Source of the DNA: Negaprion brevirostris
Lineage: Eukaryota
Assembly (NCBI GenBank): GCA_030324005.1
Contig: JARDVH010000163.1
Location: 66,384,063 to 66,448,062 of the forward strand
DNA: 64,000 nucleotides
Reading direction: 5' to 3'
The notes under the pieces were generated by a model. That model saw only the letters and a program-made list of their open reading frames with translations. It was not told the DNA's origin and did not search any database. A program made the position numbers and the translations under genes. The first letter of the stretch is position 1. The number at the start of each line of letters is the position of its first letter. Below, piece after piece: positions 9,725 to 54,438 of the stretch.

Positions 9725-11795
9725 TATCGTTTCAAATCTGGATGACCTTTCATCAGAACTGAAAACAATAGAGAATAGGTTGATATTTATACTGCTGGGG
9801 TGAGGGGGTGGAGGGATTGATAAAGATGTCATACACAAAAAGACAAAAGGAATGTGGTGGTAATCATGGCTGAGAAGGGTGCTGATGGCAGCCCATGAAG
9901 AGATCAGAATGTGTTAATAGCAGAGCAACCGTAAGCAAAGTGTCAAAAGTTAACATGAGACATGTAATGGATGGCTAGAGTAGAGTGGGAGGGAGAGGAG
10001 ACTGTAGGGAGCAGGAAAAGATGGAAAGCAAGATTTAAAAAAGATGGAAACATGAAACAATGGAAGAAATAAAAATAAAATAATTTATAATATAAATAAA
10101 TAAGATAAAATGACATGAAGCAAAATAAACGGAAATGGGGTGAAGAAGAGAGTTCATGCTCTGAAGTTGTTGAACTCAACATTTGAAAGGCTGCAGAGTG
10201 CTTAATCAGGAGATGAGTTTCTCTTCCTCCAGTTTGCATTGGGCTTCACTAGAACATTGCAACAGGCCAAGGATGAACATGTGGTCAAGAGAGCAGGTGT
10301 GTTGAAATGACAAGCGAAAGGAAAGTCTGGATCCTGTTTGCGGGTGGGCCATAGGTATTCTGCAAAGTGGTCATCCAGTTTGTGTTTGGTCTCTCCAATG
10401 TAGAGTAGACCGCATTGGGAGCTACGAATGCAATAGACCAGATTGAAGGTGGTACATGTGAAATATTGCTTCACCTGAAAACAAATATTTAGGCCCTTGG
10501 ATGGTGACTAGGGAGGAGGAAAAGGGATAGGTGTCGCACCTTCTGCATTTGCATGGTAAGGTGCAATGGGCAGGTGGTGAAGGTTGGGTTGATGGAGGAG
10601 TGGACCAAGGTGTCCTGGAGGGAATGGTTCATACGGATGCTGACAGGAGGAATGGAGGGAAGATATGTTTGGTGCTGATATCATGCTAGAGTAGGCGGAA
10701 ATAGTGGAGGATGATCCTTTGAATGCGGAGGCTGATATGGTGAAAAGTGGGGACAAGGGAGACCCTATCCTGCTTCTGGGAAGGAGAGGGGATGCGAGCA
10801 GTGTTGAAGGCCTATGAGTATAATTTTTGCTTTGGTCTGACCCATCTCCCATGCCACTGCAACTCTAACATACCATCCTGCTCTCACGTCCACATGTCCA
10901 CTCTTGGCCTGTTGCAATGTTATGGAGATGCTGGCGTTGGACTGGGGTAAGCACAGTAAGAAGTCTCACAACACCAGGTTAAAGTCCAACAGATTTATTT
11001 GGCACTAGCTTTTGGAGTCTCAGGAGCCTTCATCATGTGAATGAGGACTTATGTTCACAAACAGATCATATACAGACACAAACTCAATTTACAACTTAAT
11101 GGTTGGAACGCGAGTTTACAGATAATCAAGTCTTAAAGGTAAGTCAGCCTGAATCTATGGCCGCTTTCACCATCTGGAACTGTCAGTCAGGTATTGTGAC
11201 GGTTTCAGATGGTGAAAGCGGCCACAGACTCAGGCTGACTTACCTTTAAGACTTGATTACCTGTAAAGACTCGCATTCCAACCATTAACTTGTAAATTGA
11301 GTTTGTGTTTGTGTATGATCTGTTTGTGAACGTAAGTACTCACCTGATGAAGGAGCCTGACACTCCGAATACCATTGCCAATTAAACCTGTTGGACATTA
11401 ACCTGATGTTGCAAGACCTCTTACTGTTGCAAAGTTCCAGTGAAGCCCAACACGAACTGGAGGACCGGCACCTGATATTTGATTTGGCACTTTACATCCT
11501 TCCAGACTGAACACTGAGTTCATCAAATTCGGAGCATGAAATCTCCCCTCCACCTTCACTCCATTTCTATTTATTTTATTTCATTTTGTTTTATCTTTAT
11601 TTGTATATCTTTCAAAAAAAACTCATTTCTTTCATTGTTTCATTTTTAACTTTTTAAAAATCCTGCTTTCCACCTTCACCCAAGAATCGCAGCATTAGCT
11701 CTATTCTCTCTCCACATAAGCTGCCAGACCTGATGAGATTTTCCAGCACTTTCTGTTTTGTATCAGATTCCAGCATCCACAGTAATTTGCTTTTA
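9725..11795. mobile_element. Penelope-like element with inverted ends (GIY-YIG C-terminus), hosting a nested insertion
   Basis: Minus ORF 10202-10474 FTCTTFNLVYCIRSSQCGLLYIGETK (GIY-YIG). The same C-terminus and 3' tail recur on the plus strand at ~10850-11795. Hammerhead-like CTGATGA..GAAA at 9728-9760(-). Confidence 0.85.
10922..11426. mobile_element. Palindromic Penelope pLTR-derived insertion (second family)
   Basis: Inverted arms ~10954-11184 and ~11197-11426, each with a degenerate hammerhead core. Flanked by tgttgcaatgtt (10910-10921) and tgttgcaaagtt (11425-11436). Confidence 0.85.
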
Positions 11796-12329
11796 ACATA
11801 TATCATAGCAAGAACATGGAGAAAGCCATCTGTGTTGCACAAGGTTCTAAGCCCGGGGGCTTTGTTCAACTCATGAAAGAAAACTTAAAAATATCTTGGA
11901 AATATTTGAAAAAGCAGAGATAATTTTACAGTAGGAACAGATAAAGTAGCCAAACACATCTCAAAATTTCCATTCCGTTCTCCCATCCTCTGCCAAAACA
12001 CGCTGCCTCTTGTAGGAACACACTTTCAAGGTTGCCGTTGCCTCTCATTAGACAGTGAGTGCTGCATGCTATTCCATCATGGAAGGCCTCAATGCCAAGC
12101 CCAATCTAAGGCAACTGCTTCAATGGTCATTCCTCAAGGCCTTGCAGGTTTCACCTGATCTCTAGTGTCCAAAGAGACAGTGGTCTATTTGATCTCCCAG
12201 AGTCCCATTACCATGAGAATAATGACTAGAGATGGTTGAATATACTGTCAGGCATGGCATAACTACAACATATTGCCAGCCAGTTCAGTCAACATGCAGC
12301 AGAAAATAGCCCTGGCAGAAAAGATTTTG

Positions 12330-19966: not shown

Positions 19967-20168
19967 ATGATTGGCTCATCTTGGTGCAGGGGTCTGATGA
20001 TAAAGTGTTTTTTTCCATTTTTTAAGTCTGGCTAGGAGAATTCAAAATCCAAAGTGGTTTCTGAAAGTTGTTACAAGATTCCCTGAAAGAGGAGGATTTT
20101 CAGCAAGTCACAAAAGTTATTTGCTTGTTGGCTTATTACCAGGAGATCAGTTTACTGCATGGTGGCCA

Positions 20169-20388
20169 AAAGAGAAAACACTAGAAAATCTCAGCAGGTC
20201 TGGCAGCATCTGTAAGGAGAGAAAAGAGCTGATGTTTCGAGTCCAAATGACCCTTGTCAATGCTTTGGCAAAGGGTCATCTAGGCTTGAAATGTCAGCTC
20301 TTTCCTCTCCTTACAGGTGCTGCCAGGCGTGCTGAGATTTTCCAGCATTTTCTCTTTTGGCTTCAGATTCCACAGTAATTTGCTTTTA
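20169..20388. mobile_element. Short palindromic Penelope pLTR-derived element
   Basis: Arms gaaaatctcagcaggtctggcagcatctgtaaggagag...tgaccctt and aagggtca...ctctccttacaggtgctgccagg..tgctgagattttc. Confidence 0.85.
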
Positions 20389-22192
20389 CTGTACTGGTGG
20401 ACTTCAAAAGAAATAGGCTTGGGGAACTTAACAACGTTGCAGTGTACAGTTTTGTAGCATTGATGTTACTGACATTGTTGATGATGTTTTTGTTGTGTTT
20501 TTTGCAGACTGGCTAGCTTTTCGGGGAATAAGATTCGTTATGTGTGGTCAGTTTCAGGCATATAACCACATGATCAATACTTTTCTATTGTTTATAAAGA
20601 ATGATGTAAAGGTAGAAGCCATTACAGCACAATAGTGATCATTCACACCAATATATGATGACCTTGTTTCTCTACACCTTTTTTTACTTTAGAGCTCAGA
20701 GGCCCTGAGTCTGGGAATCCATAGATTTTGAGTTCTGGGTGAATCCATAAACAAAAGGAAGTGTGAATTCCACAGATAATTTTGTCTAAATATGTTCATT
20801 CAAGAGGTGGACCCCACCCATGGTCATTCAATTGGGAATTTTCAAAAGTCTTAAGGTCATTCTGAGTTTGAGCAGAAATTGCAAAAACCACCTGATCCTT
20901 AGCAGACTTTTAGTATCAATTTTTAGAAGACAAAACATTCCGGACAATTGTATACTGAATGCAACCTATGTTTACAGTTATGTATATGACTCACTTTCAC
21001 TAGTCATGTCAGTATGCTTGTGATTGTGAACTGGTGCACCGTATAAGTGCACATTAATTTCAATATCCTCATCATTGATTTCAAATCTTTCCATTGCCTT
21101 CTCCTTTCATGCCCCTGTAATCTCCCCCAACCTGACAAAATTCGAATCTCCCTGCATTCAAATTGTGACTTCTTGTGAATCCATGTCTTTAATCAGTCCA
21201 ACATTGGACAACCGTGCTTTCAGCTACCTGGGCTCAGGAATTTATGCCCTAACCCTCTCCAACAGAGGGCCAAATGGACAACTCCTACTTCTTGTTTCTA
21301 TGTTTTGATTAAAGGGATCAAGGCACATGGGGCAAAGGTGGGATCAGGATATTGAATTTGCTGATCAACCATGATCAAAATGAATGGCAGAGCAGGATCG
21401 AAGCGCTGAATGGTCTATCCCTGCTTCTAATTTCTATCTATATACTCTCTCTCCTCTTTAAGAAGTTTATAAAAACCTTTGATTCTGCTGTTGGGTATTA
21501 AAAATGTTTTGATTTATTTTGCTCTTGTTAGGCACCTTTGGAGGTTTTACTAAATATAATTTGTTTTTGTTGCTGTTATCCCCTATATCTGTGATCCCTT
21601 GCGCATCAGATCAAGGGATTCCCTACGCTGCTCGATACCATCTAGTCTCTTGAGACAGATAAATATAAAACTCCAGATCCAAAACCCAAAGTCATCTGGA
21701 AGTAATAAAATCTGCAAAATTCCTTCCTGATTCCTTCAAGTGGTCAAAGTTAGTTCAGGAGTCCACATTAGTCATGACTCATATTAATTGATACCCATTT
21801 TTAATGCAATCTCTACTTCAGCCAAAAACTCCAGCTCTCTCTTGAAGGCACGCAGTGAATCATCAGGTACATTCGCACCCTGTCCACCAAACCTAGGTTC
21901 CACCAGAATGCAGAATAATGTGATGGAAGGGATCTCACCCTTTCCCCACAGCAATTTAAAATTACAATAGCACAAAGCAGCCATGTTCTACAAATTACTA
22001 ATCAGTTAGTAGTCTGGGCACTTAATAGCCTTGACTAGTTAATTATGAAAGAGTAAACTGGTTAACATGAGATCTGGGAAGGTCATGTTGGCGCTCAAGG
22101 GAAACTCTCTAAAGGCTGGAATCAAGATACATTGAGCAGGAAACACCTCTAAAGTCCTTACTTCATTACCACCAAGTGTTATTTCACCCTAC

Positions 22193-22420
22193 CTTGCATG
22201 GAGCTCTGCCTTGTCTGCATCACACTTGCTCTGCAGTTGAATCATCTCTTTGACCTTATCTCGGAGCTGCTGTTCAAGCCTTCCACTTTGCATTGTGTGC
22301 TTCTCCAGTGTAGAAGTAGTACTCGCCTGAGACTGACGCAAGTTGGACTCCAGGTTCAAGCAGGCCATCTGCAGGCGCCGGGATGTCTGAGCAACATCAG
22401 TTTTCACCTCCAGGAGACTC
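22193..22420 (-). CDS. crocc2: CROCC2-like coding exon F
   Basis: ctcttcag|G AGT...AG|gtag, 228 bp, phase 2-2. Encodes SLLEVKTDVAQTSRRLQMACLNL...QLRDKVKEMIQLQSKCDADKAELHA(R). Confidence 0.93.
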
Positions 22421-23129
22421 CTGAAGAGTTGGGGGTTGGTGTTGGGGAACAAACAGACAGATCTCCTGGTCAACCCATACAGTACAAAGACAATTATTGT
22501 TAGTGTTTGTCAAAACAAAGGAACAAAACCAGAAATCATGTACCCTGCTCTTTCCCCCTCCCCAACATGGTTGAGCAAATTTAGCCATTAAGCAGGAGAG
22601 AATACAAAATGATTGAGGAGATAGAGGGATTGAATAATAAGGTGCAATTATGTAACTTTGTTCACAGCATATGAACATATGTAACTTCTAACAAACGTAC
22701 ATGAGTTAGATTGCAGACCACGACTAATAATCTTAAATTGGTTGCGAGTGTAATTCTCAGCTGTCCAATTGCAAAATCACATCAAAAGTTAGACATTATG
22801 TTCTGAGTTTTGCAAGCATGGACTGATTGAAAATGGTCAGTACTCTACCTATTGTGAACAGCTGGAGGACATGATGTTTGATACCATCCATCAGTTATTA
22901 GAATGTACAACCTATGTACCTGACATCGTACTGGCACTGAAATTCATATACCACATTGCTCATTCATGTGACAGTAGCATCCTGTTACTGGTGAATCATA
23001 CTTGTGCTGTTACTGCATAATAGTAGAGTGAACAGCTAGCTTCACCTGTTGCTCAAATTTTTGAGACATTTTGCCCTTCTCGGTAATTGAGGTTCAATGG
23101 GCACTTTTCAGGACAGAAGTTGATGACCT

Positions 23130-23640
23130 TCGGCCCATTCACGACTATACATTATACACAATGAGCAATGATCTGAGTGAGATAGTCATTATATCACAGG
23201 ATAGATTTGATGCACCCAATTTCAGTCTCAAGTTTGCACAGTGAATAAGTTGTTCAGAGCCTATTTACAAAATTACCAATAAGGGCAATCTTACAATATG
23301 TGGAGTTGTAGGAATCCTAAACAAGAGAATTCTTACATGTAGCTGCAGATTCAAATATAGCAAGGATGCTGGGAATATGTAAGGGGTACGAAGTTAGGTG
23401 TCATCCCATTGAAAATGTGTCTCTTGTGGAAACTGTGAAAAAGATTAACGAAAGCAAAGCCTCGAGGGAATCCCATGGCAACACCATCTATTTGGGCATT
23501 CATGGTGCCATTAAAGTTAAACTGCACTGTGCAAGTTGCTGAATTCATAAGTTCACCGAACACAGATCCAGAAAACAGCAGCACATCTAGATTCGCAGGA
23601 TATAGTGACGCAGTGCAAGCATCAATGGCTTCCTTGAGAT
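23130..23640 (-). mobile_element. Penelope-like RT fragment
   Basis: ORF 23351-23584 VQFNFNGTMNAQIDGVAMGFP matches the PLE F.FNG..Y.Q.DGVAMGSP motif. Confidence 0.75.
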
Positions 23641-23959
23641 GGCACCTCTGACACTTCAGTGTCCCTCAGAATGGAATGCTATTCTTGATTTTCCAGCTCA
23701 AATTGGACTTGAGTCTGGAACCTTCTGGTGCAAAAGCAAGAGTTCTACCAATTGAACCATAGCAGAAGGCAAACTAAACAGATTTTTTTTTAAATCTAGC
23801 AATTCCAGTGTTCTCATAAAGAAGGTGCCAAGTGCCATGCTGAGCTAATTGAAGGTAGTTAGGTGTAACCATGATTGTACCCAATGGTTTAAAAGGGAGG
23901 ATTTCTTCTTCTTTGTTGTGACAACAGTCCAGTCCAATTCGACAGCTAATAGGGCTTAC

Positions 23960-24066
23960 CGCTCCGTCCCACTCCTCAGATCAGTAAGATCACTGCGGAC
24001 CGTGGCTACCTGCTGCCATAGTGCCAGCAGCCTGCCATGCTCACTGCAATGGCGCAAGCCATATGT
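23960..24066 (-). CDS. crocc2: CROCC2-like coding exon E
   Basis: tttttctag|ACA...CG|gtaag, 107 bp, phase 0-2. Encodes TYGLRHCSEHGRLLALWQQVATVRSDLTDLRSGTE(R), matching rootletin EHSRLLLLWRQV. Confidence 0.92.
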
Positions 24067-24559
24067 CTAGAAAAAAATAAGAGACAAAATGGGAAGTATT
24101 TTTTCTGATGCCTTTTAACATTGCTGTTACAAGAATATTGAACATTGAGTTAAATAATTTATTTTAGGGTTACACCAGGTAAAATTTTTCCTGAAAAAGC
24201 AGTTGTCATCTTAAGAGAGTACCTTAGAAGCAATGGTGTGATGTGTTGCAGTTCACTCAGGGAGTCTGTGTTTCTGTGGCAACATGTATATGTTTTTATA
24301 TTGTTGTAGTCTGCAGCTGTGAAAATTGATGGTAGAGGCTCCAATATCCTTTCCAGGAAATGTTGACCAAGAATCTCTCCCGTTCTTACCGCCTGTCATT
24401 GGCTTTATGAATGCAGCTGCCATGGCCATCAAGTCCTTGGGTATTACCCAAACCTTGAGATTCTTGCTCAGCAGCAGAGGTGCTACCCACTGCACCACAA
24501 GACACCCTAGAAGAGTTTGTAAGCTTAGACAACTTGGACAATTTACTCTGCCCCTCATC

Positions 24560-25060
24560 TAGAGGAATAACTGGAACAGGCGAAAGATGTATTGGGGGAT
24601 GGAAATATAGAACGGGACATTGCTGCTGATTGGCCAAGCTTGTGTTAATACATGCTAACTGATTAGTTGACTGTGCAGAATAGATGGTAATATGTTTCTT
24701 GAACAAAGGTAACCAGATGTCACTAACCAAAAGGCACCTGTCCTGGGGGATGGTGTGGCATTGCAAATTTCCATGGCGGTTTTGGTAAGTCTTGCATGCA
24801 AATGTATGATGCATGAGATAAGTCTAAAATTGGACCATTGGATGTGGTGTCCATGTTTGATAATAGTTGACTTGTTCTATTTGTGACAATTGAAACAGAT
24901 TTGATGCTCCTTGAGTATAGTGTGCAGGCTGCCAATTGTTTCCCCAAAGTACACGGGTCCACAAGCATTTTTCGCAGTATAACAACTGGAATTCAACATC
25001 AACAAGGTAGAGAAATAGCACCAAGGATCTTCTTTTAGACACTTCAATTCATATATTTAC
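24560..25060 (-). mobile_element. Penelope-like thumb/linker fragment, probably the same family as 23130-23640
   Basis: Degenerate FLDV.VE (ccttgttgatgttgaa), YTRW-like (acccgtgtacttt) and GP.KCP..L.LPW-like remnants. Confidence 0.5.
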
Positions 25061-25129
25061 TGCAGATCAGAGGAATTTCATAGTCACCAAGACCAAGAAG
25101 AGTATAACAAATACTCTATACCTTCTCAA

Positions 25130-26700
25130 CATTGATATCTATTTTTAAAAAACTCACAAAGATCCCACCTCTGCTATTGAGGGAAAAATCAATACCAAGT
25201 CACTCTCAACACAGGGATAATGTTTTATCCAAGGCTTTGGATAATAAACGTTTATTACTTTTTCTTCTAGTCCAATTTTACATTAGAAGCACGAAATCCA
25301 CAGATCAGATGCCCTGCTGAGACCTATCTTCATGGAAGGTTCCCCAACAGGCAAGACAGCTCAACACCTGCAGCCACTAATTGGGAAACATACACAAAAT
25401 ATCACAAACTCTAAACATTTCATTTAGGGAATACAGCAAACCACAAACATCTCTTAAAAAACACAGGTCACTTTTGATTTTGGGTTACTGTTCATCAATG
25501 TACACATCTTAGGAACCTGTCTCATTATCAAACAATGTTTGGAAAAAGTCTTTTCCTTATCTACAAGAACTGCGATGTCACCAGATCAAATTTTCTACTC
25601 GTGTTGAAATTGAGCATCACTCCAATGGCAAGGTTCCTATTTCAAACAAATAAATTATGCTGCTATGGGATCTCCATTGTCACCAACATTTTTATGGTCG
25701 AGATCAAACAAGCAGCACTTCAATTTGCTCATCTTCAAACTAGACTCTAGCTTCGATATGACACATTCCCCATATGGTTAGATAGGAGAGAATTTCACAG
25801 CTTTCTACAGCACCATAATAGCCAACATTCAAGTATTGTCTTTACTGTGGAGATTGAAGTATAACATTACTTATCTCTTCTTGATGTTGCCATCACCAAG
25901 TCTCACAGTGCATACAAATACATCAAGTCAACTGTAAACCCATTCAAACTGACAGATATCTCAACTATCGGCACTGTACTTTTCTTCATCTCTTCACCCT
26001 CTAATTGGTTTCCAACATCCTCTTTAAAAAAGCCTACTCCATCCTTGACTAGAAACATCTAAGAACATAAGAACATAAGAAATAGGAGCAGGAGTAGGCC
26101 ATCTAGCCCNNNNNNNNNNNNNNNNNNNNNNNNNNNNNNNNNNNNNNNNNNNNNNNNNNNNNNNNNNNNNNNNNNNNNNNNNNNNNNNNNNNNNNNNNNN
26201 NNNNNNNNNATGCTATCCTTAATCAGCAGAGCTACGCCCCCCCCCTTTTTCCTCCCGCCTATCCTTCCTAAACACTTCTACAACAAGAGTGTTGTCATGT
26301 TAAGTCTACACATCAATTCAAAGGGCTCTCTACATACAAAGATAACACATACCCATCTGTTACTCACTCCATAGCAGTTACTTCCACAAAAACAAAAGTC
26401 AGCTTCCTGTACATCAATCCCACCTTGCACAGAGTGCAACATATACTGAAGTCAGTGGACATCAACTCCGATACAAGTCATCTAAGAAGCTACACTCACA
26501 TCTACACATCTACAAAGACAAGGAACCACCTTGCAACAAATCACAAACTCACAGCAGTACATTTAATTATGGACCTGTTTGCATTGAGGAAACAGGTCAC
26601 AGCCAACACATTAGATTCAAGGAATATCAAACTTGCTTTAATGCGACAAGTCAGCTATAGACAAACACACTCAACTTAATAATCATCATATCCATTAATC
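25130..26700 (+). mobile_element. Old, heavily degraded Penelope-like element, interrupted by a CR1 tail at 26060-26109 and a gap
   Basis: Collinear remnants of GLPKIHK (~25380), SLFTNV (~25485), AAMGSPLSP (gctgctatgggatctccattgtcacca, ~25660), FLDV (~25875) and KP..TDRYLNY (~25935). Confidence 0.65.
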
Positions 26701-27977
26701 CACCTCTTGACTTAATTCAGCCATAATGTGTCAGAGAGGCCATGGGGAGATCTACTAACAAGCACCACACTTTCCCCCAAGACAGCAACCCTAATTCTCA
26801 TCAGTAACATCAAGCAACTCTTATTCAAGAGACTATTCTGTATAGCCAACCAATAAATAGCAAGAGTTTCAATATGTACCTACCTATTATAAACACAATA
26901 GTTTGACCAGCAGTAAGATCCTGCCCATATCTCAGTCTCGACTCTATGTAACTACCTCTTACAGTCATTCCTCCCAGTGATGGGCAGGGTATGCTGCTTG
27001 ATGCATTGAGGCCTACCACTTCTAAAGAACTTTTTAAGGTAACAACTTATTTCCTCAAAGCAAATTTTTAGATGGCATAAAAGTTAAAGTTGTTTTAATG
27101 TTACTGCTGAAACCATGAAAATCTTCAAATAACTTTTAAATCTTTGTTGAAGTCACTTTAACAGATTTAGAAGCCCCTAGAGTGATGTCAAGATAGGAAA
27201 ACTCTTGAGTAGGTCAAAGGTAGGAAATTTTCCAATTTCATTCCCCAGCTGGGTTCATTCTGGACTCATGTTGAAAATTTGACATATGCTGGGTGTGATG
27301 TTCTGACTCCTACCAGCAGCATATAGCATTCCTGATGGGCATGGGCCCATAATACAAAAATACTGGGAGGTAACAAGTAAGAGCCTCAACCATTGTAATT
27401 TAAGCAGAGAAATCACAGATGCACTCTCAATAAATAACACTTCTGCCAGGAACCTTTCCAAGAAATTGAAAACTCTTAAATTGAAGCTTCATTAAAAAGA
27501 TCTACATTTTAAAAAGATTATTTATGGGAGTTTATTTTTATGTTTTGTATCTTCATTCACTTTTTCCTTGGGAGTAGTGAAGAAATGTTGGAAGGATTAT
27601 CAACCATTAATTGGGTGTGAATGGGTGACAGGGAAAACTGAAAATATTTTCTATTGTAGCAAGAAGAATTCTGAGGGTATAATGTGGTGGAAAAGTCAAT
27701 GCANNNNNCATTGTCCAACTGTGACACTACAAACAAGAGAATGTTCCATTTCCCAGAACTAACACCCATCACTACAATGAGCACACAAAATAAAACATAC
27801 AGCAATAAACAAAAAGGACAGAATTATTTTAGAATTGCACACAACCCAAGCAGATTGTCTTACAGTTATGGCTGTCACAGCAGCAATTTCACATTGCGTC
27901 TTGTAAGACAGTCCACCAGAGTTGTGTGGGAATAAGCAAGTGCGATAGCACTGAGTAATGTGAGAACAGATAGCTAC

Positions 27978-28143
27978 CTCCTGTTCCCACCGCGCTGTCA
28001 TTTCTCTGTGCTCCAGTTCATTCCTTGCTTTGCCGAAATCAACTGTGAGCTTGCGAAGATCCTCATCAAGTCTCTGACTGGCTGTGTTGGCCTGTTCTAG
28101 TTGCTCCCGCAACATGGCATTGACCTGAGTCAAGCTGCTGGTT
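27978..28143 (-). CDS. crocc2: CROCC2-like coding exon D
   Basis: ctgatag|A ACC...GAG|gtag, 166 bp, phase 2-0. Encodes TSSLTQVNAMLREQLEQANTASQRLDEDLRKLT...RWEQE (rootletin domain). Confidence 0.93.
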
Positions 28144-28687
28144 CTATCAGAGAGATTAAACCCAATCACATTCGGTACTGATCTTGACATTCTGATCCTG
28201 ATTTGTGGCAGTTAATTTTCCTCTTCATTTCACTTCAGATTTNNNNNNNNNNNNNNNNNNNNNNNNNNNNNNNNNNNNNNNNNNNNNNNNNNNNNNNNNN
28301 NNNNNNNNNNNNNNNNNNNNNNNNNNNNNNNNNNNNNNNNNNATTTGTTAATCTATATTTGAGGTCTCATTGTCTAGTCTGAGTTTGTTGAAATGGTTAT
28401 GTATTTAACCTGTACGTGCAGGATTATCCTTTTATAGGTACTTCATTTGTCCTCTACTGAAACTGGAGCAAATCATCATCCTCCCACCCATTCTCTTCAA
28501 TCCTTTGTTCAAGTTTTTTAATTGAGCTCTTTTGAAGTTATAAACATGGTTCCTGGTCTTTTAGTAGAATTGTTTCCCAGATCATATCAAATTTGATAAT
28601 TCGGAGCTGTAAATTCCATTTCCCATTCATTGTCTTGATCAGTTACAAATACTGAGTCAAATTAAGAACTGCTTCTCATTGCACTGC

Positions 28688-29200
28688 CTCAGTGTTTCAG
28701 CTGCTAACAGTGACTCTTGGTTGGCATTCCTCGTTTTACTCACAAGGAAAGCCAACATTCTTTCTCTCTGACCTTTCCTCTCAGTCTTCCAATTATTTTC
28801 TGTTATTGCTGAACAAAGACATTTTGTTGAAGCTTTTCGTCTTGCACCTATCAGAACAATCACCAGAATACCAATGTCAAGGAAACAACAATATCATATG
28901 AGAATAAAAGTGCTGATTGGTTGGCAAGGGGTTTCTGATTGGTAGAGGGCTTGCAATGGAGAATGCAGTGTAATGCATTTGCATGTCCTGGAAGCTACAT
29001 ATGTTAATACACACGGCCATGTGCCTTGCAGACAGACAGAACATTTATACACATTGCCTCTGTTTCAGCTGAACAAAATAAGTGATGGTCATTTGCTGGT
29101 TCATTCCTCATGGCAAAACCTTGAGCAATAAGAATCAAGATGCCTCACTTAAATTTACAAACAATGCTTGGGAAGATTTTTGCGATTGTTCTGATGAATA
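28688..29200. mobile_element. Penelope-like 3' end with inverted pLTR (third family)
   Basis: Plus-strand HVLEATY.NT..P..CRQ.E C-terminus at 28980-29080. Inverted copy at 28688-28970 carries a hammerhead-like motif at 28823-28860(-). Confidence 0.7.
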
Positions 29201-30719
29201 TGGAGGGCAGAGTGTGGTAATTGTAAAATTAATTAAGTGAAAAATGTTGATTCTGGTGAAGTTAAAGACTGTTAAAGACAGGGCTGTGAAGGGGAAGGGT
29301 AGTTAAGTCTTGTTCTAATTCATAAAAGGCAAAGGTTGGTGAACTTGTTGGACAATGGAATGAAATGCTTGCCTTCATCCTTCTGAGATTGAGCAAAGCA
29401 AAATGAAAGAGTCAATATAGCTGGACTCAATATAACCACTTCAATTCCTTTGATACTGAAACACATTTTCACTTACTCCAATATAATTCTTTGCAATGGA
29501 TTGCCAAAAGAAAGACACACTGTTTGTACTGCACAATAATAATATTTTAAGAAACAGCCTTTGACCCAAAGCAATACAGTGAAGGAAATTTGTAATATTT
29601 AAAATGTCTGTGGAATCTATATTACTTTGAATATATTTGAAAATGACTTTACAATTTACATGAGTTGCAAAGGGATCGATTGTAATTTTCTTTGACGATA
29701 AGACCTGGTGATCCTTATATGGCATCAATACCAACAGGAGATAAGTTAAGACCAGAAGCCATGTGGTTAGACACAAAGGAGAGCCATAACAGAGAGAAGG
29801 ACAGAAAAGGCACATTTACAAGGAGCTGCGTGTGTATTACAGTTAGACAGGACAGAAGGCTAAAGGCAGGGTTAGAGAAGTGATGTCAATTGAACAATTT
29901 TACCACTACTGAGTTTTGCCAGTGTTGGCCAGACTGTTTAATGGGGTGAATTCAATAGATGGGATAAATTAGTCTCTGAGGAATCCATGCCATCAANNNN
30001 NNNNNNNNNNNNNNNNNNNNNNNNNNNNNNNNNNNNNNNNNNNNNNNNNNNNNNNNNNNNNNNNNNNNNNNNNNNNNNNNNNNNNNNNNNNNNNNNGAGG
30101 AATCCATGCCATCAAGACCAGCTAAGGCGGTTCTACAGGACTGTGCCATTTTGGGATTTGGGGGAGGGGGGGTGGTGGTACGGGTGGTGGGTGGTGGTGA
30201 TCATCTCCTGACGGCTCATATAGAATATGGCTGCCAATGAATGCGACTAAAGGGCTGAAACAGTTGACTGGGAAAGTGAGAGATCTTATATACCAGAGCC
30301 CAAGTTAAAGAATTTTGGACTGTACGTGGTATCACGTGTCTGCGGGGCATGATGCGGGTGGTTGTGTAAGATGAATCTTTGTTGTACTATTTAAAGTGAA
30401 ATTCAACTTTTCATTTAAAATATCACTTGCCTCTTAATTCATGTTTAATATGCATTGGTGCCAATTCATAATAAAAGGATCTCATTAGTAATTACTTCAT
30501 TTGGGGGTCATTCATAAAATTTGGTTATTACGGCCTATTGCTTCTCCATAGGGAACATAACAATTAAATTTAATCCTGTTTATTATAGCAATAGAATGCA
30601 TTCACATTCCAAAGTTTTAACATCTCATGAGTTACTTCAAAAGTGCAGTTAGTATTATCATGCCACTGTATGTGTTTCTACTTTTTCACACAAGATTCTA
30701 CAATGACATAAGTGAGGGA

Positions 30720-31060
30720 GTGACATAAGGTGATAGCACAGTGTGATCGTCACTGAACTAGTAACCCAGAGACCCAAGGTAATGCTCTGGGGATCCGGGT
30801 TTGAATCCCAACATGGCAGATGATGAAATTTGAATTCCATGAAAATCTGGAATTAAAAAGTCTAATGATGACCATGAAACCATTGTCAATTGTTGCAATG
30901 TCCTTTAGGGAAAGAAATTTGGCCTGCATGTGTCTCCAGATCTACAGCAATGTGGTTGATTCTTAAAAAAGATGTTGTTTGAAATGGTCCAGCATTTGAG
31001 GAAATTAGGGACGGGCAATAAATGCTGGCCCAGCCAGTGATGCCCACAATGAATGAATAA
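30720..31060 (+). mobile_element. tRNA-derived SINE
   Basis: gtcactgaactagtaacccagagacccaag..aatgctctgggga.ccgggtttgaatccca head and tail aattagggacgggcaataaatgctggcccagccagtgatgcccac. Confidence 0.7.
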
Positions 31061-31065
31061 AAGGT

Positions 31066-32140
31066 GAACAAAGAACAAAGAAAACTGCAGCACAGGAACA
31101 GGCCTTTCGGCCCTCCAAGCCTGCACCATGTTGCCCATCTGAACTAAAATCCCCGGCCTTTCTAGGGACCATATCCCCCTTATTTCCATCCTATTCATTT
31201 ATTTATCAGGATGTCGCTTAAAAGTCACTATCATATCCGCTTCCACTACCTCCCCCAGCGTGAGTTCCAGGAACCTACCACCCTCTGTGTAAAAAACGTT
31301 TAAAGGAGACGTATGTGCCTCATACATCTCCTTTAAACCTTGCCCCTCACAGCTTAAACCTACACGCCATAGTAAGTGACTCTTTGACCCTGGGAAAAAG
31401 CTTCTGGCAATCCACTCTGTTCATGCCTTTCATAATCTTGCAGACTTCTATCAGGTTACCCCTCAACCTCAAAGGATGACAAAGGGTCAGTTGGACTCGA
31501 AATATCAGATCTTTTTTCTCCTTACAAATGCTGCCAGACCTGCTGACATTTTCCAGCATTTTTTCTTTTGGGGGCTCTTGCGCCCTCACCTCAATGAATT
31601 CCGGACTCACCATGATATTGAACTCTTCTTTGGGCAAGAGTCCTTCTCCTGTTCTACATGCCTCCAACATTCTGCCTCCAATTGGACACCCGCTCCAGGA
31701 CAATTGCCTGCCCTCAATCTTTTCATTAGGAACTGTTGACGAGATAGTGGCTGTCTCAATTTTTCTGTCCCCGTCACCCATTCCAACCTCTGTCCTTCCG
31801 AATTTTCCACTCTTTGTTCCCTCAGGTCCAATTCAGATTGTCATCAAACCTGCCAACAGAGGGGGTGCTGTTGTCGTCTGGCGTACTGATCTCTACCTTG
31901 CAGAGGCTGAGCGCCAACTCTCAGATGAGCTTTGACAAAGGGTTATCTGGGCGCAAAACATTAGTTCTTTTCTCTCCTTAGAGATGCTGTCAGATCTGTT
32001 GAGATTTTCCAGCATTTTCTCTTTTGGTTTCACCCCTCAACCTCTGTCATTCCAGTGAGAACAAACCAAGTTTCTCCAACCTCTCCTCATAGATAATGCC
32101 CTCCATATTGGGCAACATTTTGGTAAATCTTTTCTATATT
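31066..32140 (-). mobile_element. CR1 LINE 3' end, interrupted at 31471-32031
   Basis: Minus LRGNLIEVCKIMKGMNRVDCQKLFPRV followed by a gaacaaa tandem tail at 31066-31085. Confidence 0.85.
31471..32031 (+). mobile_element. Internally deleted mini-Penelope with direct pLTR repeats and 13-bp TSD
   Basis: pLTR copies at ~31476-31571 and ~31929-32031 enclose IVIKPANRGGAVVVWRTDLYLAEAERQLSD. acccctcaacctc is duplicated at 31458-31470 and 32032-32044. Confidence 0.85.
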
Positions 32141-33814
32141 AATCAATTATTTGCTGGCAGTTCTTGTTGAAAGGGGAATATTAACCCTGCACTTCCTTGA
32201 CTGCAACTGTGGGATCTTTCAATCTAAACAAATTTCTTTGAAAGGTGGCACTTCTTACAAATCAGCAGTCCCTTGGTGCAAGATCAGGTTATCAGGCCCT
32301 GGGAGTAACAACTTTCTACTCTAGTGCTTACACGTAGCCTGAGCTGACACAAGGTTAAATTGTAATATACTCACCAAATAATTATGGGTTGAAAGCTAAG
32401 AATGAAAGGGAACAGAAAGAAATTCAGTGATTCTACCATCTGATTTTTTAAAATACGTCTACAAGTGTAACTCAAATGTGAGATGAGTCTCGGCTGGGAG
32501 GTAAAGATGAGGACACCAGGCAGAAACAGTCAGGCTCACACCAGTACAGTCAACTCCAGAAAAACACAAATCTCAATTCAACAGCTGTGTGTTAACCACT
32601 TCCCATTCTCTGCCATCAGGCAGGCCCCAGAGCCAAGAACAACAGTGAAGCAGAAATTCTAAGTCAAATAGAAAATATTCCCTTGTGACCAGATTCCAAC
32701 GCCACCTGCAGCCAGGTGTCACGCACACAGAACAGCACTGATTTTAAGTCAGTGAATGTTATAAATACTCAGTTTGTGAGTTATATATTTCTGGGACCGC
32801 GTTCAATTTTAGGTAAAATAGAGTAGTCATGTGACCTGTTCTGAATACTGCTTGACAATAAGTCTTGGTGGCTTTGTTGCTAAGGGGACATGGAGGCTGA
32901 TTTATAGGCAAGGCGACACAGTGTGCTCACAACTGTAAGCAATGACTGGAACAGTTGTGCTGACAGTTGGTAACCTGGCAGGGTTGAATTCTGACACAGT
33001 AGGGCAGACATTGAAAATAGTGGACGGACCTGGATGTGGAAGACCCACCTGCCATTTCTGACCGATCCAATTTTCTTCCGATAGAGGAAAGAGGATGGGT
33101 TGTGATTTGCACAGGATGGAAACCTGAGCTCAGCAAAACCATGCAAAATAAGTTCAATCAGACCTCATTTTGGCTTTTGCAAGGGCCTTAACCCACAGTG
33201 TGGAAGTCACTAATTGATGAGTAGACATACATGCACTTGAAGGGCAGATAAGATCCCTGTGACACGATTGTAAGGGCAGCCTGTAGTATGTAATAAAGGA
33301 AGTCAGACACTGTCCTTCCCCCCCTCTGGGGCAGGGTGGCATACTGTCCTTTCCCCTTCTGGGATTGGGTGGCACAATCTTCTATCTTGATAGAAGATAG
33401 AAGGATAACACTATAATCTAGAAGGACATAGGCAGCAGAAATCTAGGACACCACCACCTCGATATTCCCCTCCAAGATATTCACCACCCTAATCTGGAAA
33501 TATATTGCCATTCTTTCACTATAACAGGGTAAAATTCCCTCTCTGACAGCACTGTGGATGTACCTACACTTCCGAGACTGCAGCGGTTCAAAAAGGCAAC
33601 TCACCACAACCTTCTCAAGGGGAATTAGGGATAGGTAATAAGTGCTGGCCTAGCCAGCGATGCCCACATCCTGAAAATAAATTTAAAAGTATAGATTTGG
33701 AGGAATTGGATAATAAATCTCTTTTAATGGGAGTCAAAGTTACCTGTAAGAATGAGGTTTGGCTGTGACAATCCAGCTTCTCCTGGGCATGGGCACATCG
33801 TGCTATATTAACTC

Positions 33815-34912
33815 AAAATCAGTTAAAGCTCTCATTATGTGGAATAAAGTGCACAGTAGCAATTTGGATGCAAAACTGGCTGAGAATAATTGTCAATGTA
33901 TATTTGTCAAGCCAGAGAGAGGTTTGTAGTGGAGCTCCCCAGGAATCGGTATTAGAACTTCTACTTTTTCTGATAAGCATTACTGATCTAGATCATGGTG
34001 TGCAGAAGACAATTACAATGCTTGCAAGTAACATAAAACTAAGAAGCATTGTAAACTGTGAGGGGGACAGCACTGAACTTCAAAAAGACAGACAAGTTGG
34101 TGGAGTGGGCAGATAGGTGGCAGATGAAGTTCAATGAGGAGAAGTATGAGGCAATACATTTTGGTAGGAAGAACATGGAGAGACAATATAAAATAAGCCT
34201 TACAGTTGTTATGATAATGCAGGAGCAGAGGGATCTGAGTGTACATGTGCATGGATTATTGAAGGCAGAAGGACAGGTGGAGAGAGTAGTTAACAAAGCA
34301 TAAGGTATCCCAAGTTTTATTAATAGGGGCATAGAGTACAAGGGCAAGGAGGTTATGCTGAACTTATACAAGACACTTGTTAGATCTCAGCTGGAATATT
34401 GTGCACAGTTCTGGGTGTCACATTATAAGAAAGACATGAATGTATTGGAGAGAGTACAGAAGAGATTTACAAGAATGGCTCCAAGGAGGAGAAACTTCAG
34501 TTATGAGGATAGATTAGACAGGTTGGGGCTGTTTTTCTTGGAAGGAAAAAGGCTAAGAGGAGATTTGATAGAGATGACCAAAACCAGAATGTACTGAACG
34601 GAGTAGATAAGGAGAAACTGTTTCCCACTCATAAAAGGATTGAGAACAAGAAGGCACAGAATTAAAGTGATTTGCAAAAGAGCAAATGTCAATGAGAGAA
34701 AACATTTTTGGGTCTGGGTAGCACTGCCTGGAAATGTGGTGAAGGCAGCTTCAATCGAGGCACTCAAGAGGGCATTGGATGATTACTTGAATAGTAACAA
34801 TGTGCAGAGTTACGAGACAAAAGTAGGGGGATGGAACTAAGTCATAATGCTCACTTAGAGAGCTGGTACAGACATGATGGGCCAAATGGCCTCCTTCAGC
34901 ACTAATAATTCT
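33815..34912 (+). mobile_element. CR1 LINE 3' fragment (RT C-terminus)
   Basis: SGAPQESVL, EWADRWQMKFNEEK, LYKTLVRSQLEYCAQFW and RLRGDLIE motifs, with stops and frameshifts. Confidence 0.92.
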
Positions 34913-35233
34913 GTAATTGACTGTCATCCTTGAGAGAAGACATTGGGAAGCTGTGGTGTAAGAAATACAATGATATCATACAAATGCAAGAGAGTTACTC
35001 ATTGGAGGTCGCAATGAAACTGCAGTTTGAGGCAGTGTAGAAGTTTTTTCACACTTTGCCTTGAAATGCACAAGATTCAGTGGAGAATTTTCCAACTTCA
35101 CACATTAACACCACAGTCTGAGGAGTGTAAACCTCATCCATGCAACCTTTCCCTTTTGATCTCTTATATGCTCTATTTCTTTCGAGGGGTTTCCCCCACA
35201 GCACAAATTGGAAACTGAATGAGCTAAAGATCA

Positions 35234-35452
35234 CAAAAACAGAATATTTCAGCAGGTCTGACAACATCTGAGGGAAGAGAACAGAGCCAGTGTTTCGAGT
35301 CTAGATGACCCTTTGTCAGCTCTGGTGAAGGGTCATCTAGACTCGGATCATTGGATCTATTCTCTCCCCACAGATGCTGTCAAGAATTGCTGAGATTTTC
35401 CAGCATTTTCTGTTTTTGTTTCATATTCCAGCATCCACAGTATTTTGCTTTT
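35234..35452. mobile_element. Short palindromic Penelope pLTR-derived element; also 44761-44930, with partial copies at 2440-2540, 53995-54250 and 54375-54650
   Basis: Inverted arms centred on tgaccctttgtcagctctggtgaagggtca. Confidence 0.8.
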
Positions 35453-35543
35453 AAGCTAAAGGCCACAGACGGTGCCACCCTGCATAGAAAGATTGGCAAG
35501 AGCTCTAGGTACTGTTGAGTAATACAGAACAAACGTCGCTCAC

Positions 35544-44325: not shown

Positions 44326-47300
44326 CTACATCTTGCAACCCGAACAGCCTGGCTGGACAGACACTACATCGCAAGGTATCATAGGAGTAACATCCAAATT
44401 TTGCACTCCTTCTGAGGAGTCTCAGTATGTTCCAGATGTTTTTGGGGTGTAAGATCAGCCAACCTTTTAAGTTAATGATCAGATCAGAGTGTGGAATGTT
44501 TCCAATACATGTTCCTAGTTGGTGAGATTTCTTGCTAGAAATGGCAAGTAGGTAAATCACCCTAGGTTTTCAGTCAACAATGAAATATTAATATCTTGTT
44601 TGACCTGGATTTGTCCCCTCAAAGTCAATCTCCCAAACTCCATCAGGAACAAGGAACATAAAAGATTCCATGGCATTGCATTGAAGAACAGCTGGGCCGT
44701 TCTCCCCAGTGTTCTAACCAATACTTAACCCTCAACCAACATCACAGATTATCTGAAGGAATAAAAGCAAAATACGGCAGATGCTGGAATCTGAAACAAA
44801 AACAGAAAATGTTGAAAAATCTCAGCAGGTGTGACAGCATCTGTGGAGAGAGAGTAGAGCTACTTTGCTCTATTTGCTCTCCTCAGATGCTGTCAGGCCT
44901 GCTGTGATTTTCCAGCATTTAGTTTTTATCACAGATTACCTGGTTGTTATCACCTTGCCTGTTCTATGGGATCTTGTTGTGTGCAAATTGGTATTTCCTG
45001 CATTGAACCAGGGACAGAACTTCAAAAAATACTTCATTGGTTGGGAAACACTATGGGACATCTGGAGTTGTGAAAAGAGCTTAAGAAATGCAAGACTTTC
45101 TTTACTTTTCCCAGTCCATTGTCCAATGGTCAAAGTTGAAATTTAAATTGGTTATGTATACATTTTTTGTGCGAAAATCTTCGATTACCAAACTTTCACT
45201 GATACACAGTTTGATTGCCAAGAAACATTAGATCAAATTTTCTATAAATTGATGATAAAAATAGTCAATTAGCCAATCCACGTGTTCAGGCCTCTTAAAC
45301 ATTCATTCATTCAGCTCGTACAAGTAACAGGAAAACTGAAACGCACTCAATTATTATTATGAGCGTGATTAGCCTTGTAACTGTGCTGCTGTGTCTGAAT
45401 GACATGTGCCTGGGGAATTGCCTGTGTTCAACATTTTGGCTATTCAGCGCTAGATAATCCGGAACATTCTTTGCTTGGATCAGTAGTTTGTGTGTTTTAA
45501 CTGTTATTCTTGGAGTACAAATTCTATGCAATGGGAAGTGGTTTGCCCTGTCAGTATTCTGTGTTTAGATCAGATCTTGCTTGGAGCAGGTCTGAGTTTA
45601 TCTAGAGTCATCTGTCCAAACACAGCTTGGATCCAAGCATTACATTAATTTGGCCAAATATTGCAGCAGACTTAACCCTTCAAAGGACTTCAGCATAAGT
45701 ATTCTGAAACTCTCCTACTCTGGCAGAGGATTAGATCTGGCCTTCTTACTGCTGAGATGTGATTCAATCCAGCTTTCACTAATGGTCTTGAGAATCTGCT
45801 GCCTGTAAACATCCTAGGCAATCTAGGTTTCAGACACTTTTGAGTGTGTACGGTTCTAAAGCAGAAATATGCCTCTGATTAAATACTAGTCACCAATAAT
45901 TACCACAGTAAGAAAGGTTGATGTAGGAAGTACCTGAAACAGTAACTGTCAGAACTACTGAATCAAAGGGAGGTTTGGGACTTTTGATCCTGAGCAGGGT
46001 AAAGGCTGTCTGCCACCAACACAATCACAAAACCAGCCCAAGTGCTTTACACAGAATCCTGTTCTGTCTTGGTCAACTCACATAGATCAGTGTCCTATAA
46101 TCAATAAGCATCAAGTTCATGGGACCAACAAGACTGGGGCTATGCTTGACCATGATGCAAATACACCACTCTTGCCACCAGGTGAGCTGACCTCACTGAA
46201 TTATGCAAAGTGAACCGAAGTATGTGCAGGGTATCAGGTCAGGAGTATTATTGGCGGGGAGGAGTAACATTCAGCTAGGCAGCAACTCTTAAACTCTTCA
46301 ACAGGCAGCTGGACTGTTAAAGGGGAGACCATTTTGATAGCCTTGAGAGCTGTTGCTGCAGAAAGAGTGGACTGCAATTAGAATTGCGTGGGTAGAATCT
46401 GTCCCATTTAATCTCAATGCCTTTGGCGTCTTGCTGTTAAGGTAAGATGCAAAAAAGAGAGGCTCTAAATGGGCAGAAGAACATTTTCCTCTGCAAACTG
46501 GAGATGCATGCAGCTGGAATGAGGTGGCCCTATTGAGTCTCTGAAGACAATTTACCAGGGAGCAAATTAGGACAAAGTATATTGATGTCCAGAGATGTGC
46601 TAAGAAATGACGTCTAAAAGATGTCAATTCAGTTTTATCAGACGAAATACGAGGGATGTTCGTAGAGCCACAATGCGTGGGACTGCTTTGGCAAAAAAAG
46701 TTACACATTGCAGGATGCATCCATTGTAGGAATTAGTTCTCAAAAACTGAGTGACTTGTCAATTTCACATCCTTAGTCATCAGCTTCTTCTAATTCACCA
46801 TTCTTCACATTCAAGTCTTGTCTTCTTCATGCTGCAGAGTTCCTACTCTCCCAATGGCAAAATTGTGTGGGATGGGGTAAATGGCCAGGTGTACTGTTCC
46901 TTATTTGATTGAAATCCTATCCAAATAGAGGAGGCATCTCCAGAAATGGTTTTTCTTTGTATCTCCACACCATCAGTGCCAGAGTCACCCAAAGGTCTAT
47001 CCTTAGCCTCTTCCTGATCTGTATCTTAACCGTTAGTGAAATCAGCTGCCCATACAAAGTTAACTTTTACACATACTTTAATGATACCCAGTTCTAACCC
47101 AACCACTTCTCTCCATCCTCATATTGCCTCTGCGCTGTGAGCCTGCATGTCCAAACTCCAACCTTGAACAAGTTCGCTTACTTCCAAGCCAAAACCATCA
47201 CCTTTAGCTTCCAATGTAAAGTGCTCATTTGCTGCTAATGCCATTTCCTCTCTGGCCACTGTCCCCAGTTGTTTATAGGCTTGAGGTTCTGTTCAACAAG

Positions 47301-53871: not shown

Positions 53872-54438
53872 TTGGATGTGCTGAGTTGACCAATTGTTCC
53901 TTTGTAAACAAACCTCTACTTCAGAAGGGGTTGGTCAATATCTAAGTTACTTCAGAATGAGAACACAATTGTCTGATTCCCAAATCGCAAAGAAATTCAG
54001 AAACAAAAAATACTGGAAAACTTCAGCAGGTCTGACAGCTTCTATGGAGAGAGAATAGAGCCAACCTTTCTGGATGATCCTTTGTCACAGCTGAAGACAA
54101 ATAATTGACAAAGATGTCATGGACAAAAGGACAAAGGGAATATAAATGGTGGTTATAGTGGCTCAGAATGGTGCTAATAGCATCCAATAAAAGATCGGAA
54201 TGTATAAATGGCAGAACAAAAGCATAGAGTGTCAAAGGACAACCTGAGGAATATGGCAGATCGCCTTGGTGAGATGGATGGTGGAAACAAGAAATTCAAC
54301 TGTATTGAAAACAGCCATGTATGCGAATAATGTGGCCATTTAAATTGGTGTTGAGATTTCAACATATATAATCATAGAAAATGCTAAAAAAGCTCAGCAG
54401 GTCTGGCAGCAGCTGTGGAGAGGGAAACAGAGTTAACA

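What the first reader, a model, noticed from the sequence alone, without database searches (positions are those of the whole stretch)
20169..35452. Recurrent non-canonical hammerhead-like core (YUGACAA for CUGAUGA) in one Penelope pLTR family
Seen: copies at ~20236-20260(-), ~20264-20292, 31476-31503, 31930-31958, 35294-35320(-) and ~54066-54088(-) mostly read (U/C)UGACAA-aGGGUC-aucYR-GACUC-GAAA. A related copy at 9728-9760 has canonical CUGAUGA in the same position. The shared change means the master element carried it while it was transposing. Known: G8 of the core is normally essential and pairs with C3, and U3-A8 would be a compensatory pair. The UUGACAA form fits that. Inference: this is either a natural U3:A8 hammerhead variant or a lineage that transposed without self-cleavage.
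Basis: partly seen in the sequence, partly recalled or inferred. Interest (0 to 1): 0.7.

Follow-up and report, generated by a model that had tools for sequence, protein, structure and literature searches.

The report
Swapped-pair hammerhead in Penelope subfamily
One of two sister families of an old jumping gene carries a small self-cutting RNA motif with a swapped core base pair that likely still worked, a variant already described in other animals, while the look-alike copies in the sister family are ordinary mutational decay.

Summary
The flagged copies mix two sister subfamilies of an extinct Penelope-like element (PLE). Subfamily A carried U3 and A8 in its master: 59 of 67 cleanly aligned copies read U3:A8, and UUGACAA has 2,636 exact genome-wide matches. 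Subfamily B had canonical CUGACGA. Its CUGACAA and CUGAUGA copies are the two decay products of that CpG (CG 9, TG 22, CA 24 of 64). So 'YUGACAA' joins a real variant with an artefact. Four of the six flagged cores are A and two are B. All A-versus-B differences keep the minimal hammerhead fold. A neutral simulation gives 2-4% for C3U once G8A is fixed, so A is likely a functional compensatory variant; cleavage is untested. Copy 5' ends pile up 30 nt below a TATA box at the first base of stem I, not at the cut site, in both subfamilies. Most inserted copies therefore likely came from uncut RNA. U3-A8 PLE hammerheads are published for Schistosoma (PMC4209133), and this scan has noted them in other genomes. 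Verdict: a new member of a known kind.

The parts
20166..20264 (-). Subfamily A pLTR arm; minimal hammerhead with U3:A8 core at 20260-20254, GAAA at 20238-20235, predicted cut between 20231 and 20230; the unpaired base after A9 is lost and stem III is decayed
20262..20394 (+). Subfamily A pLTR arm, head-to-head partner; core UUGGCAA (U3, A8, A6G) at 20265-20271; runs to the outer 3' end (tail)
31476..31573 (+). Subfamily A pLTR copy, 5'-truncated at about hammerhead position 4; A8
31575..31927 (+). Decayed fragment of the PLE ORF upstream of the RT core (I-K-P-A-x-x-G-G-A-V-V-V-W stretch)
   Evidence: 23 of 31 residues identical to RT-bearing P0002, E 3e-14
31928..32032 (+). Subfamily A pLTR copy starting exactly at +1; core UUGACAA at 31932-31938; G12 decayed to A
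35242..35323 (-). Subfamily B arm; core CUGACAA at 35319-35313, the CA decay product of CUGACGA
35318..35453 (+). Subfamily B partner arm; core CUGGUGA at 35322-35328 (C3 and G8 kept; TG decay product; A6G)
54001..54092 (-). Subfamily B copy; core GUGACAA at 54088-54082; stem II partly deleted
9728..9791 (-). Third-family pLTR fragment: TATA-like box at 9791, +1 at 9760, canonical CUGAUGA at 9756-9750, ends after GAAACG
44762..44920 (.). Head-to-head pair of pLTR stubs without the core, both starting near the predicted cut site
11684..11796 (+). Subfamily B pLTR stub without the core

Best explanation
The UUGACAA copies are ends (pLTRs) of one extinct subfamily (A) of a Penelope-like retrotransposon whose master carried a U3:A8 pair in a minimal type I hammerhead that likely still cut slowly as a dimer, while the CUGACAA copies of sister subfamily B are post-insertion CpG decay of a canonical CUGACGA core. 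Shown: two masters; U3 and A8 fixed in A; CpG-type decay at B's positions 7-8; the same predicted stems I and II and the same palindromic ACGU in both; A's pLTR runs directly into PLE ORF sequence. Inferred route: G8A arose at the hypermutable C7-G8 CpG and was rescued by C3U, and the lineage also changed the cut triplet from GUU to GUC. Inferred function: transcription starts at the first base of stem I, 30 nt below a TATA box; two motifs pair through ACGU to form stem III; cleavage after nucleotide 35 would clip a capped leader from the ORF-bearing RNA or cut tandem read-through transcripts. Most new insertions were copied from uncut RNA.
For: Genome-wide exact 22-mer counts: U3C7A8 2,636; C3Y7G8 487; C3C7A8 370; U3Y7G8 78 (odds ratio 44; this reflects two lineages, not independent events). 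Copies not chosen on the core and classed by six markers 3' of the cut site: A has U:A in 59 of 67; B has C:G in 21 and C:A in 13 of 40. Dinucleotide 7-8 in A: CA 73, TA 7, TG 4, CG 1, other 7 of 92. In B: CG 9, TG 22, CA 24, TA 2, other 7 of 64, like the other CpGs. Of 12 listed head-to-head pairs with a B arm and both cores aligned, 7 differ at 7-8. The six A/B differences in the 39-nt motif fall at 3, 8, two loop II bases, H17 and a stem I wobble, all compatible with the fold. Neutral simulation: P(C3U given G8A) is 2.0-4.4% and P(all changes compatible given G8A) is 0.3-0.8%. No amplified mismatched master was seen: A-loop-type C3A8 and U3G8 are about 5% and 2% of A, from hand counts of listed rows. 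A pLTR sequence lies upstream of and contiguous with ORF sequence in 5 of 30 ORF-selected loci, 3 of them with the U3:A8 core in view. ORF pieces match RT- and GIY-YIG-bearing proteins. Perreault 2011 states that the covaried pair is active in vitro, citing a paper I could not open.
Against: No cleavage was measured. There is no pile-up of 5' ends at the predicted cut site: A has 1 of 159 at +36 (8 within +34 to +38) against 41 at +1 to +3; B has 0 of 110 at +36. The genome therefore holds no trace of cleavage for either subfamily. Substitutions are not rarer inside the motif (6 in 39 nt) than just downstream (6 in 55 nt). The simulation rests on an assumed ancestor, polarised by a handful of copies from other families read by eye, and the family was picked because it shows the pair. 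The predicted monomer minimum-energy fold pairs the core with the cut-site strand, 1.5 kcal/mol below the open fold in A and 2.6 in B. Metazoan minimal hammerheads cut weakly even as dimers, and non-cleavage roles are not excluded (PMC4209133). Catalytic mutants did not impair insertion in vitro by the anole PLE. The start site is inferred from DNA only.
Confidence: 0.7

Rival explanations
1. Subfamily A's ribozyme was dead. G8A was fixed at a CpG hotspot, C3U was a chance passenger, and the element amplified without self-cleavage.
For: Insertions derive mostly from uncut RNA. Hammerhead cleavage is dispensable for insertion in vitro in the anole PLE. Naiad PLEs lack canonical hammerheads and proliferate. 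G8A is an expected hotspot: 23-36% of simulated 3-5-change paths include it.
Against: Chance of the restoring C3U is only 2-4%, and of all changes being compatible under 1%. A keeps both constrained CpGs (C11.1-G12 and the stem III palindrome) in its master. The same swap is published in schistosome PLEs and other hammerheads.
Confidence: 0.18
2. The two changes were kept for a non-catalytic reason: together they make +3 to +13 a near-perfect palindrome (CUUUG-A-CAAAG), which could favour fold-back priming, endonuclease recognition or RNA pairing.
For: The sequence shows the palindrome directly. 17 of 101 aligned A cores are fold-back junctions that read through it.
Against: A single template switch copies one arm from the other and cannot give both changes (reasoning from the sequence). 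Head-to-head pairs are not clearly more common in A (36 A-A pairs among 238 copies) than in B (19 B-B plus 20 B-unassigned among 137).
Confidence: 0.08
3. All A8 copies are independent CpG deamination products of a canonical master, so there is no variant.
For: True for subfamily B.
Against: In A, CA outnumbers TG 73 to 4 with 1 CG, while A's real CpGs decay both ways (TG 33 and CA 46; TG 26 and CA 55), and position 3 is U.
Confidence: 0.02

Closest known systems
U3-A8 minimal hammerheads of Cercyon PLEs in Schistosoma mansoni (Cervera and De la Pena 2014, PMC4209133; parts 1-2 of 4 of the text read, supplements not seen)
   Same: Same U3-A8 covariation in a PLE pLTR hammerhead, over a thousand mostly solo copies, an unpaired base between positions 9 and 10.1, a G10.1-C11.1 pair, palindromic 15.2-16.2, no helix III, and close inverted pairs.
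   Different: Here the host looks like a cartilaginous fish (nearest named proteins are from Mobula and Hypanus) and the element is Neptune-type. Helix II is 5 bp rather than 7-8. A canonical sister subfamily of similar age sits beside it, so the two-step change can be traced. I saw no activity test of the U3-A8 form in the parts read.
Natural U3-A8 hammerheads of Perreault et al. 2011 (PMC3088659, passages)
   Same: C3-G8 covaries to U3-A8 in several natural hammerheads; stated to be active in vitro.
   Different: The passages read do not tie them to minimal dimer-dependent PLE motifs; tolerance may depend on surrounding elements (title of the cited paper, which is not held).
PAc, a Poseidon PLE of Anolis carolinensis (Frangieh et al. 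2024, PMC11167929, passages)
   Same: Hammerhead at the pLTR/ORF start; two 3' ends about 30-40 nt apart (tail); insertion from uncut RNA; no RNA reads ending at the cut site.
   Different: PAc has canonical C3:G8 and its ORF starts inside the ribozyme. Here the likely ORF start is about 170 nt downstream, and the motif begins at the inferred transcription start.
Neptune clade of endonuclease-bearing PLEs (Craig et al. 2021, PMC8557442, passages)
   Same: RT, then a CX2-5CxxC linker, then a C-terminal GIY-YIG; pLTR hammerhead; inverted 5'-truncated copies; optional tail.
   Different: No tree was built, and Nematis shares the linker, so the clade is likely rather than shown.

Membership tests
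Minimal type I hammerhead of metazoan PLEs | Core positions U4 G5 A6 A9, G12 A13 A14, A15.1-U16.1 and H17 | tested here: met
   Majority states in A and B copies; compatibility check passed for both masters
Minimal type I hammerhead of metazoan PLEs | Watson-Crick pair between positions 3 and 8 | tested here: met
   U:A in 59 of 67 A copies; C:G master in B
Minimal type I hammerhead of metazoan PLEs | Helix I (4-5 bp) and helix II with G10.1-C11.1, and an unpaired base after A9 | tested here: met
   Predicted 4-bp stem I and 5-bp stem II in both masters and in real copies (z-scores -0.4 to -2.7, weak on their own)
Minimal type I hammerhead of metazoan PLEs | Palindromic 15.2-16.2 allowing dimer helix III | tested here: met
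   ACGU in both masters. The active dimer itself was not modelled; the cofold minimum-energy structure was an inactive form.
Minimal type I hammerhead of metazoan PLEs | Self-cleavage (as a dimer) | not testable with these tools
   No assay; the genomic 5'-end test showed no cut-site pile-up in A or B
Endonuclease-bearing Penelope-like element | ORF with RT and C-terminal GIY-YIG | tested here: met
   Decayed pieces had no direct Pfam hit (0 of 5). The RT piece hits P0002-P0004 at 59-68% identity, which score RVT_1 (two) and GIY-YIG (one) below Pfam cut-offs. The endonuclease piece matches P0004 at E 6e-24.
Endonuclease-bearing Penelope-like element | pLTR carrying the hammerhead and contiguous with the ORF | tested here: met
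   A pLTR sequence runs into ORF sequence in L095, L107, L114, L116 and L118
Endonuclease-bearing Penelope-like element | Inverted 5'-truncated copies and optional 30-40 bp tail | tested here: met
   92 head-to-head pairings among 466 hits; 3' ends cluster in model bins 100-119 (51) and 140-159 (76) of 178 hits
Neptune clade | CX2-5CxxC linker between RT and endonuclease | tested here: met
   Seen in translations of L096, L110 and L117; also shared by Nematis
Neptune clade | Placement in an RT phylogeny | not tested
   No tree built

The most novel reading that the evidence does not exclude
The hammerhead begins at the very first transcribed base of these PLEs and acts as a dimer-triggered self-decapping switch: when two transcripts meet, each loses a 35-nt capped leader, and only uncut RNA is translated and reinserted. 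Subfamilies A and B then form a natural matched pair, showing that selection rescued a CpG-driven G8A with C3U to keep this brake working in a vertebrate.
Probability: 0.2. Interest if true: 0.6.

Novelty: new member of a known kind. Interest (0 to 1): 0.3.

Why it matters
The role of PLE hammerheads is still open: they are conserved, yet dispensable for insertion in vitro. A compensated U3:A8 pair fixed in a subfamily that made thousands of copies, beside a canonical sister, is indirect evidence that catalysis was under selection. It also gives a ready pair of natural sequences for a cleavage assay. As a practical caution, CUGACAA in methylated genomes is often CpG decay and not a ribozyme variant. 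The variant itself is already published.

Tried and rejected
1) CpG decay as the whole story: my first guess; holds for B only. 2) Cut-site pile-up of 5' ends as a fossil of cleavage: suggested by the 44861/44867 pair but not seen in 159 A or 110 B copies (18 and 5 copies dropped for gaps or short 3' cover). 3) Rfam: no hammerhead family among 18 matches at E<=10; the top ones are hairpin microRNA models below their cut-offs. 4) Pfam on decayed ORF pieces: 0 of 1 and 0 of 5. The ESM Atlas gave no result. 5) An 89-nt GT-AG intron joining an AUG at +57 to the ORF: the acceptor-to-ORF distance was 56 nt in two copies and 58 in one, so the frame is unresolved, and an in-frame AUG near +170 makes the intron unnecessary. 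6) A pattern search for outgroup families returned only 2 matches, so polarity rests on scattered copies. 7) Expression: no RNA holder listed; only contigs were available, so the start site and cleavage could not be read. The difference table was empty even for the reference copy's private changes and is uninformative. 8) Papers not held, so nothing seen: Lunse et al. (PMC5785218), Przybilski and Hammann 2007 (PMC1986816), Nelson and Uhlenbeck 2008 (PMC2271363). Lunse et al. and the unread supplements of PMC4209133 may already list this or a related vertebrate variant. Searches with no report of it in a cartilaginous fish: 0 papers; 1 review, 'shark' used only for the shape; 0; only PMC4209133; one irrelevant hit.
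Full report
Observation. The six flagged motifs and the canonical one are at the stated coordinates. Read as hammerhead positions 3-9 they are UUGACAA (20260-), UUGGCAA (20265+), AUGACAA (31476+), UUGACAA (31932+), CUGACAA (35319-) and GUGACAA (54088-). All six have A8; three fit YUGACAA. A 21-mer with positions 7-8 free has 4,113 exact matches in the 2.69-Gb genome, against 0 for the reversed control.

Two subfamilies. The first 30 loci split into two types. Type A has U3, A8, a G-ending loop II, C17 and an A1.1-U2.1 pair. Type B has C3, C7-G8 or its decay products, an A-ending loop, U17 and a G1.1-U2.1 wobble. They also differ downstream and have different upstream promoter regions. Whole-genome exact counts: U3C7A8 2,636; C3C7A8 370; C3Y7G8 487; U3Y7G8 78; the other 542 of the 4,113 carry other letters. 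Hand counts of the listed rows: 96 of 100 U3C7A8 rows have the A-type loop; 85 of 100 C3Y7G8 rows have the B-type loop (33 CG, 67 TG); C3C7A8 rows are 62 B-type and 38 A-type; U3Y7G8 rows are 49 A-type of 78. Patterns placed wholly 3' of the cut site give 2,827 A and 2,515 B matches, so the two subfamilies are of similar size.

Unbiased test of the core. I pooled 261 sequences (1.83 Mb; loci chosen around pattern or ORF hits, not at random). A profile search gave 485 hits, 466 unique. Six markers 3' of the cut site classed 238 as A, 137 as B and 91 as unassigned; a few copies of other families are misassigned. After removing copies chosen on the core and fold-back junctions, A has U3:A8 in 59 of 67, and B has C:G in 21 and C:A in 13 of 40. 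The dinucleotide at 7-8 in B is CG 9, TG 22, CA 24 of 64, the same two-way decay as its other CpGs (19, 33, 31 of 91; 21, 27, 38 of 105). In A it is CA 73, TA 7, TG 4, CG 1 of 92, while A's true CpGs decay both ways. In 7 of 12 listed head-to-head pairs with a B arm, the two arms differ at 7-8, as at 35319/35322 here. So A8 is ancestral in A and post-insertion decay in B. Non-CpG divergence from the majority is 9.0% in A and 11.7% in B (B is heterogeneous), so both are old.

What the element is. The window's 31575-31927 piece matches an RT-bearing protein. In 5 of the 30 loci found with it, A pLTR sequence lies on the same strand about 750 nt upstream and runs straight into shared body sequence; 3 of these show the core. 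Downstream pieces show RT motifs, a CX2-5CxxC linker and a GIY-YIG region. They match proteins named from Mobula and Hypanus that score RVT_1 or GIY-YIG below Pfam's cut-offs; the decayed pieces had no direct Pfam hit. The linker marks Neptune or Nematis PLEs (PMC8557442, passages). Two preferred 3' ends about 35 nt apart and many inverted pairs match the PLE tail and inverted-pLTR pattern. Contigs from seven runs under seven organism labels lay across an A-type core. In one search (four runs) no change at 3 or 8 was listed at 5% or more, with six rows hidden and mapping biased toward A; one run may be the window's own sample. So A is probably shared by related species.

Anatomy of the motif. 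With +1 as the first base of stem I: stem I is 1-4 with 36-39, the core is 5-11, there is one unpaired base, stem II is 13-17 with 23-27, then GAAA, the palindrome ACGU, and H17 at +35. Both masters fold these stems. The monomer minimum-energy form also pairs the core with the cut-site strand, by 1.5 (A) and 2.6 (B) kcal/mol, so A is not more trapped than B. This matches the published minimal hammerhead (PMC4209133, parts 1-2 of 4 read).

Was the A motif under selection? The six A/B differences in 39 nt are the 3:8 pair, two loop bases, H17 and a stem wobble, all tolerated. Scattered copies of other families, including 9756(-), mostly have C3, G8 and U17 (read by eye), so U3, A8 and C17 look derived in A. 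Using substitution rates measured from the copies, a neutral path of 3-5 changes that includes G8A also includes C3U in 2.0-4.4% of cases and stays fully compatible in 0.3-0.8%. Mismatched A-type cores occur only at background mutation levels, and the few such copies inspected carry no shared B-like markers. Against this: the family was picked for showing the pair, the ancestor is assumed, and changes are no rarer inside the motif than beside it. Perreault et al. state that the covaried pair is active in vitro (passages); the primary paper was not held. That GUC is a better cut triplet than GUU is recalled, not checked.

Where copies begin. In copies not chosen on the core, 41 of 159 A copies start at +1 to +3 and 36 run further upstream; only 1 starts at +36 (8 within +34 to +38). 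For B, 33 of 110 start within two bases upstream to +3, and 0 start at +36. Loose ends in four other runs also cluster at +1 (199 contigs in X15). A TATAAAT box lies 30 nt upstream of +1 in 15 of 26 pattern matches (17 at 30-31; about 7 of the 26 are unrelated chance hits), including one B copy and the third-family copy at 9791. I infer that +1 is the transcription start and that most insertions were copied from uncut RNA, in the canonical and the variant subfamily alike. This agrees with the anole PLE, where uncut RNA is the main substrate and catalytic mutants still insert (PMC11167929, passages). The test therefore neither shows nor excludes cleavage by A.

Mechanism. Shown: two masters, U3:A8 fixed in A, CpG decay in B, conserved fold, PLE context, 5' ends at +1. 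Inferred (about 0.7): G8A at the CpG hotspot was rescued by C3U, and the A motif stayed a slow, dimer-dependent ribozyme. More speculative (about 0.2): because it starts at the cap, its job is to decap or trim surplus or tandem transcripts rather than to make the insertion template. Rivals are a dead passenger (0.18), selection for the near-palindrome that U3 and A8 create (0.08), and pure decay (refuted for A).

Novelty. U3-A8 in PLE hammerheads was reported in 2014 with about 1,300 hits in S. mansoni, and natural U3-A8 hammerheads in 2011. Earlier notes of this scan describe U3-A8 PLE hammerheads in other genomes and ordinary PLE hammerheads in this genome; these are unchecked AI notes, not support. 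My searches found no report for a cartilaginous fish, but a key paper and supplements were not seen. Also seen as passages, without bearing on the verdict: PMC6765202, PMC6155905, PMC7151607 and bioRxiv 10.64898/2026.07.22.740005. Verdict: a real variant, a new member of a known kind, interest 0.3.

Noticed in passing
window 9791-9760(-); L042, L058, L061, L239 and others: A TATAAAT box sits 30-31 nt upstream of the first base of hammerhead stem I in three related pLTR families, although the sequence between differs; copy 5' ends pile up at that base.
   Followed up: partly
pLTR positions +40 to +56, +88 to +106 and about +190 to +210 (e.g. L118, L095, L116): Three polypyrimidine-AG stretches resemble 3' splice sites; the first is followed by an AUG and a short ORF, and a possible 89-nt GT-AG intron ends at the third. 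The frame is unresolved.
   Followed up: partly
subfamily A positions +3 to +13 (e.g. window 31930-31940): U3 and A8 together make the core a near-perfect palindrome, and fold-back junctions often read through it.
   Followed up: partly
window 31476-32032: A short composite of pLTR stub, 350-nt internal ORF fragment and pLTR stub, with the roughly 750 nt that normally separate pLTR and this ORF part missing; likely a template jump.
   Followed up: no
window 44762-44920: Head-to-head stubs that both begin near the predicted cut site; not a general pattern in the wider sample.
   Followed up: yes
subfamily B position +21 (loop II): B splits into C (48) and T (32) forms, suggesting sub-subfamilies.
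   Followed up: no
L082:4797-5240: Tandem and inverted B pLTRs that run about 70 nt into the element body before a new copy starts.
   Followed up: no
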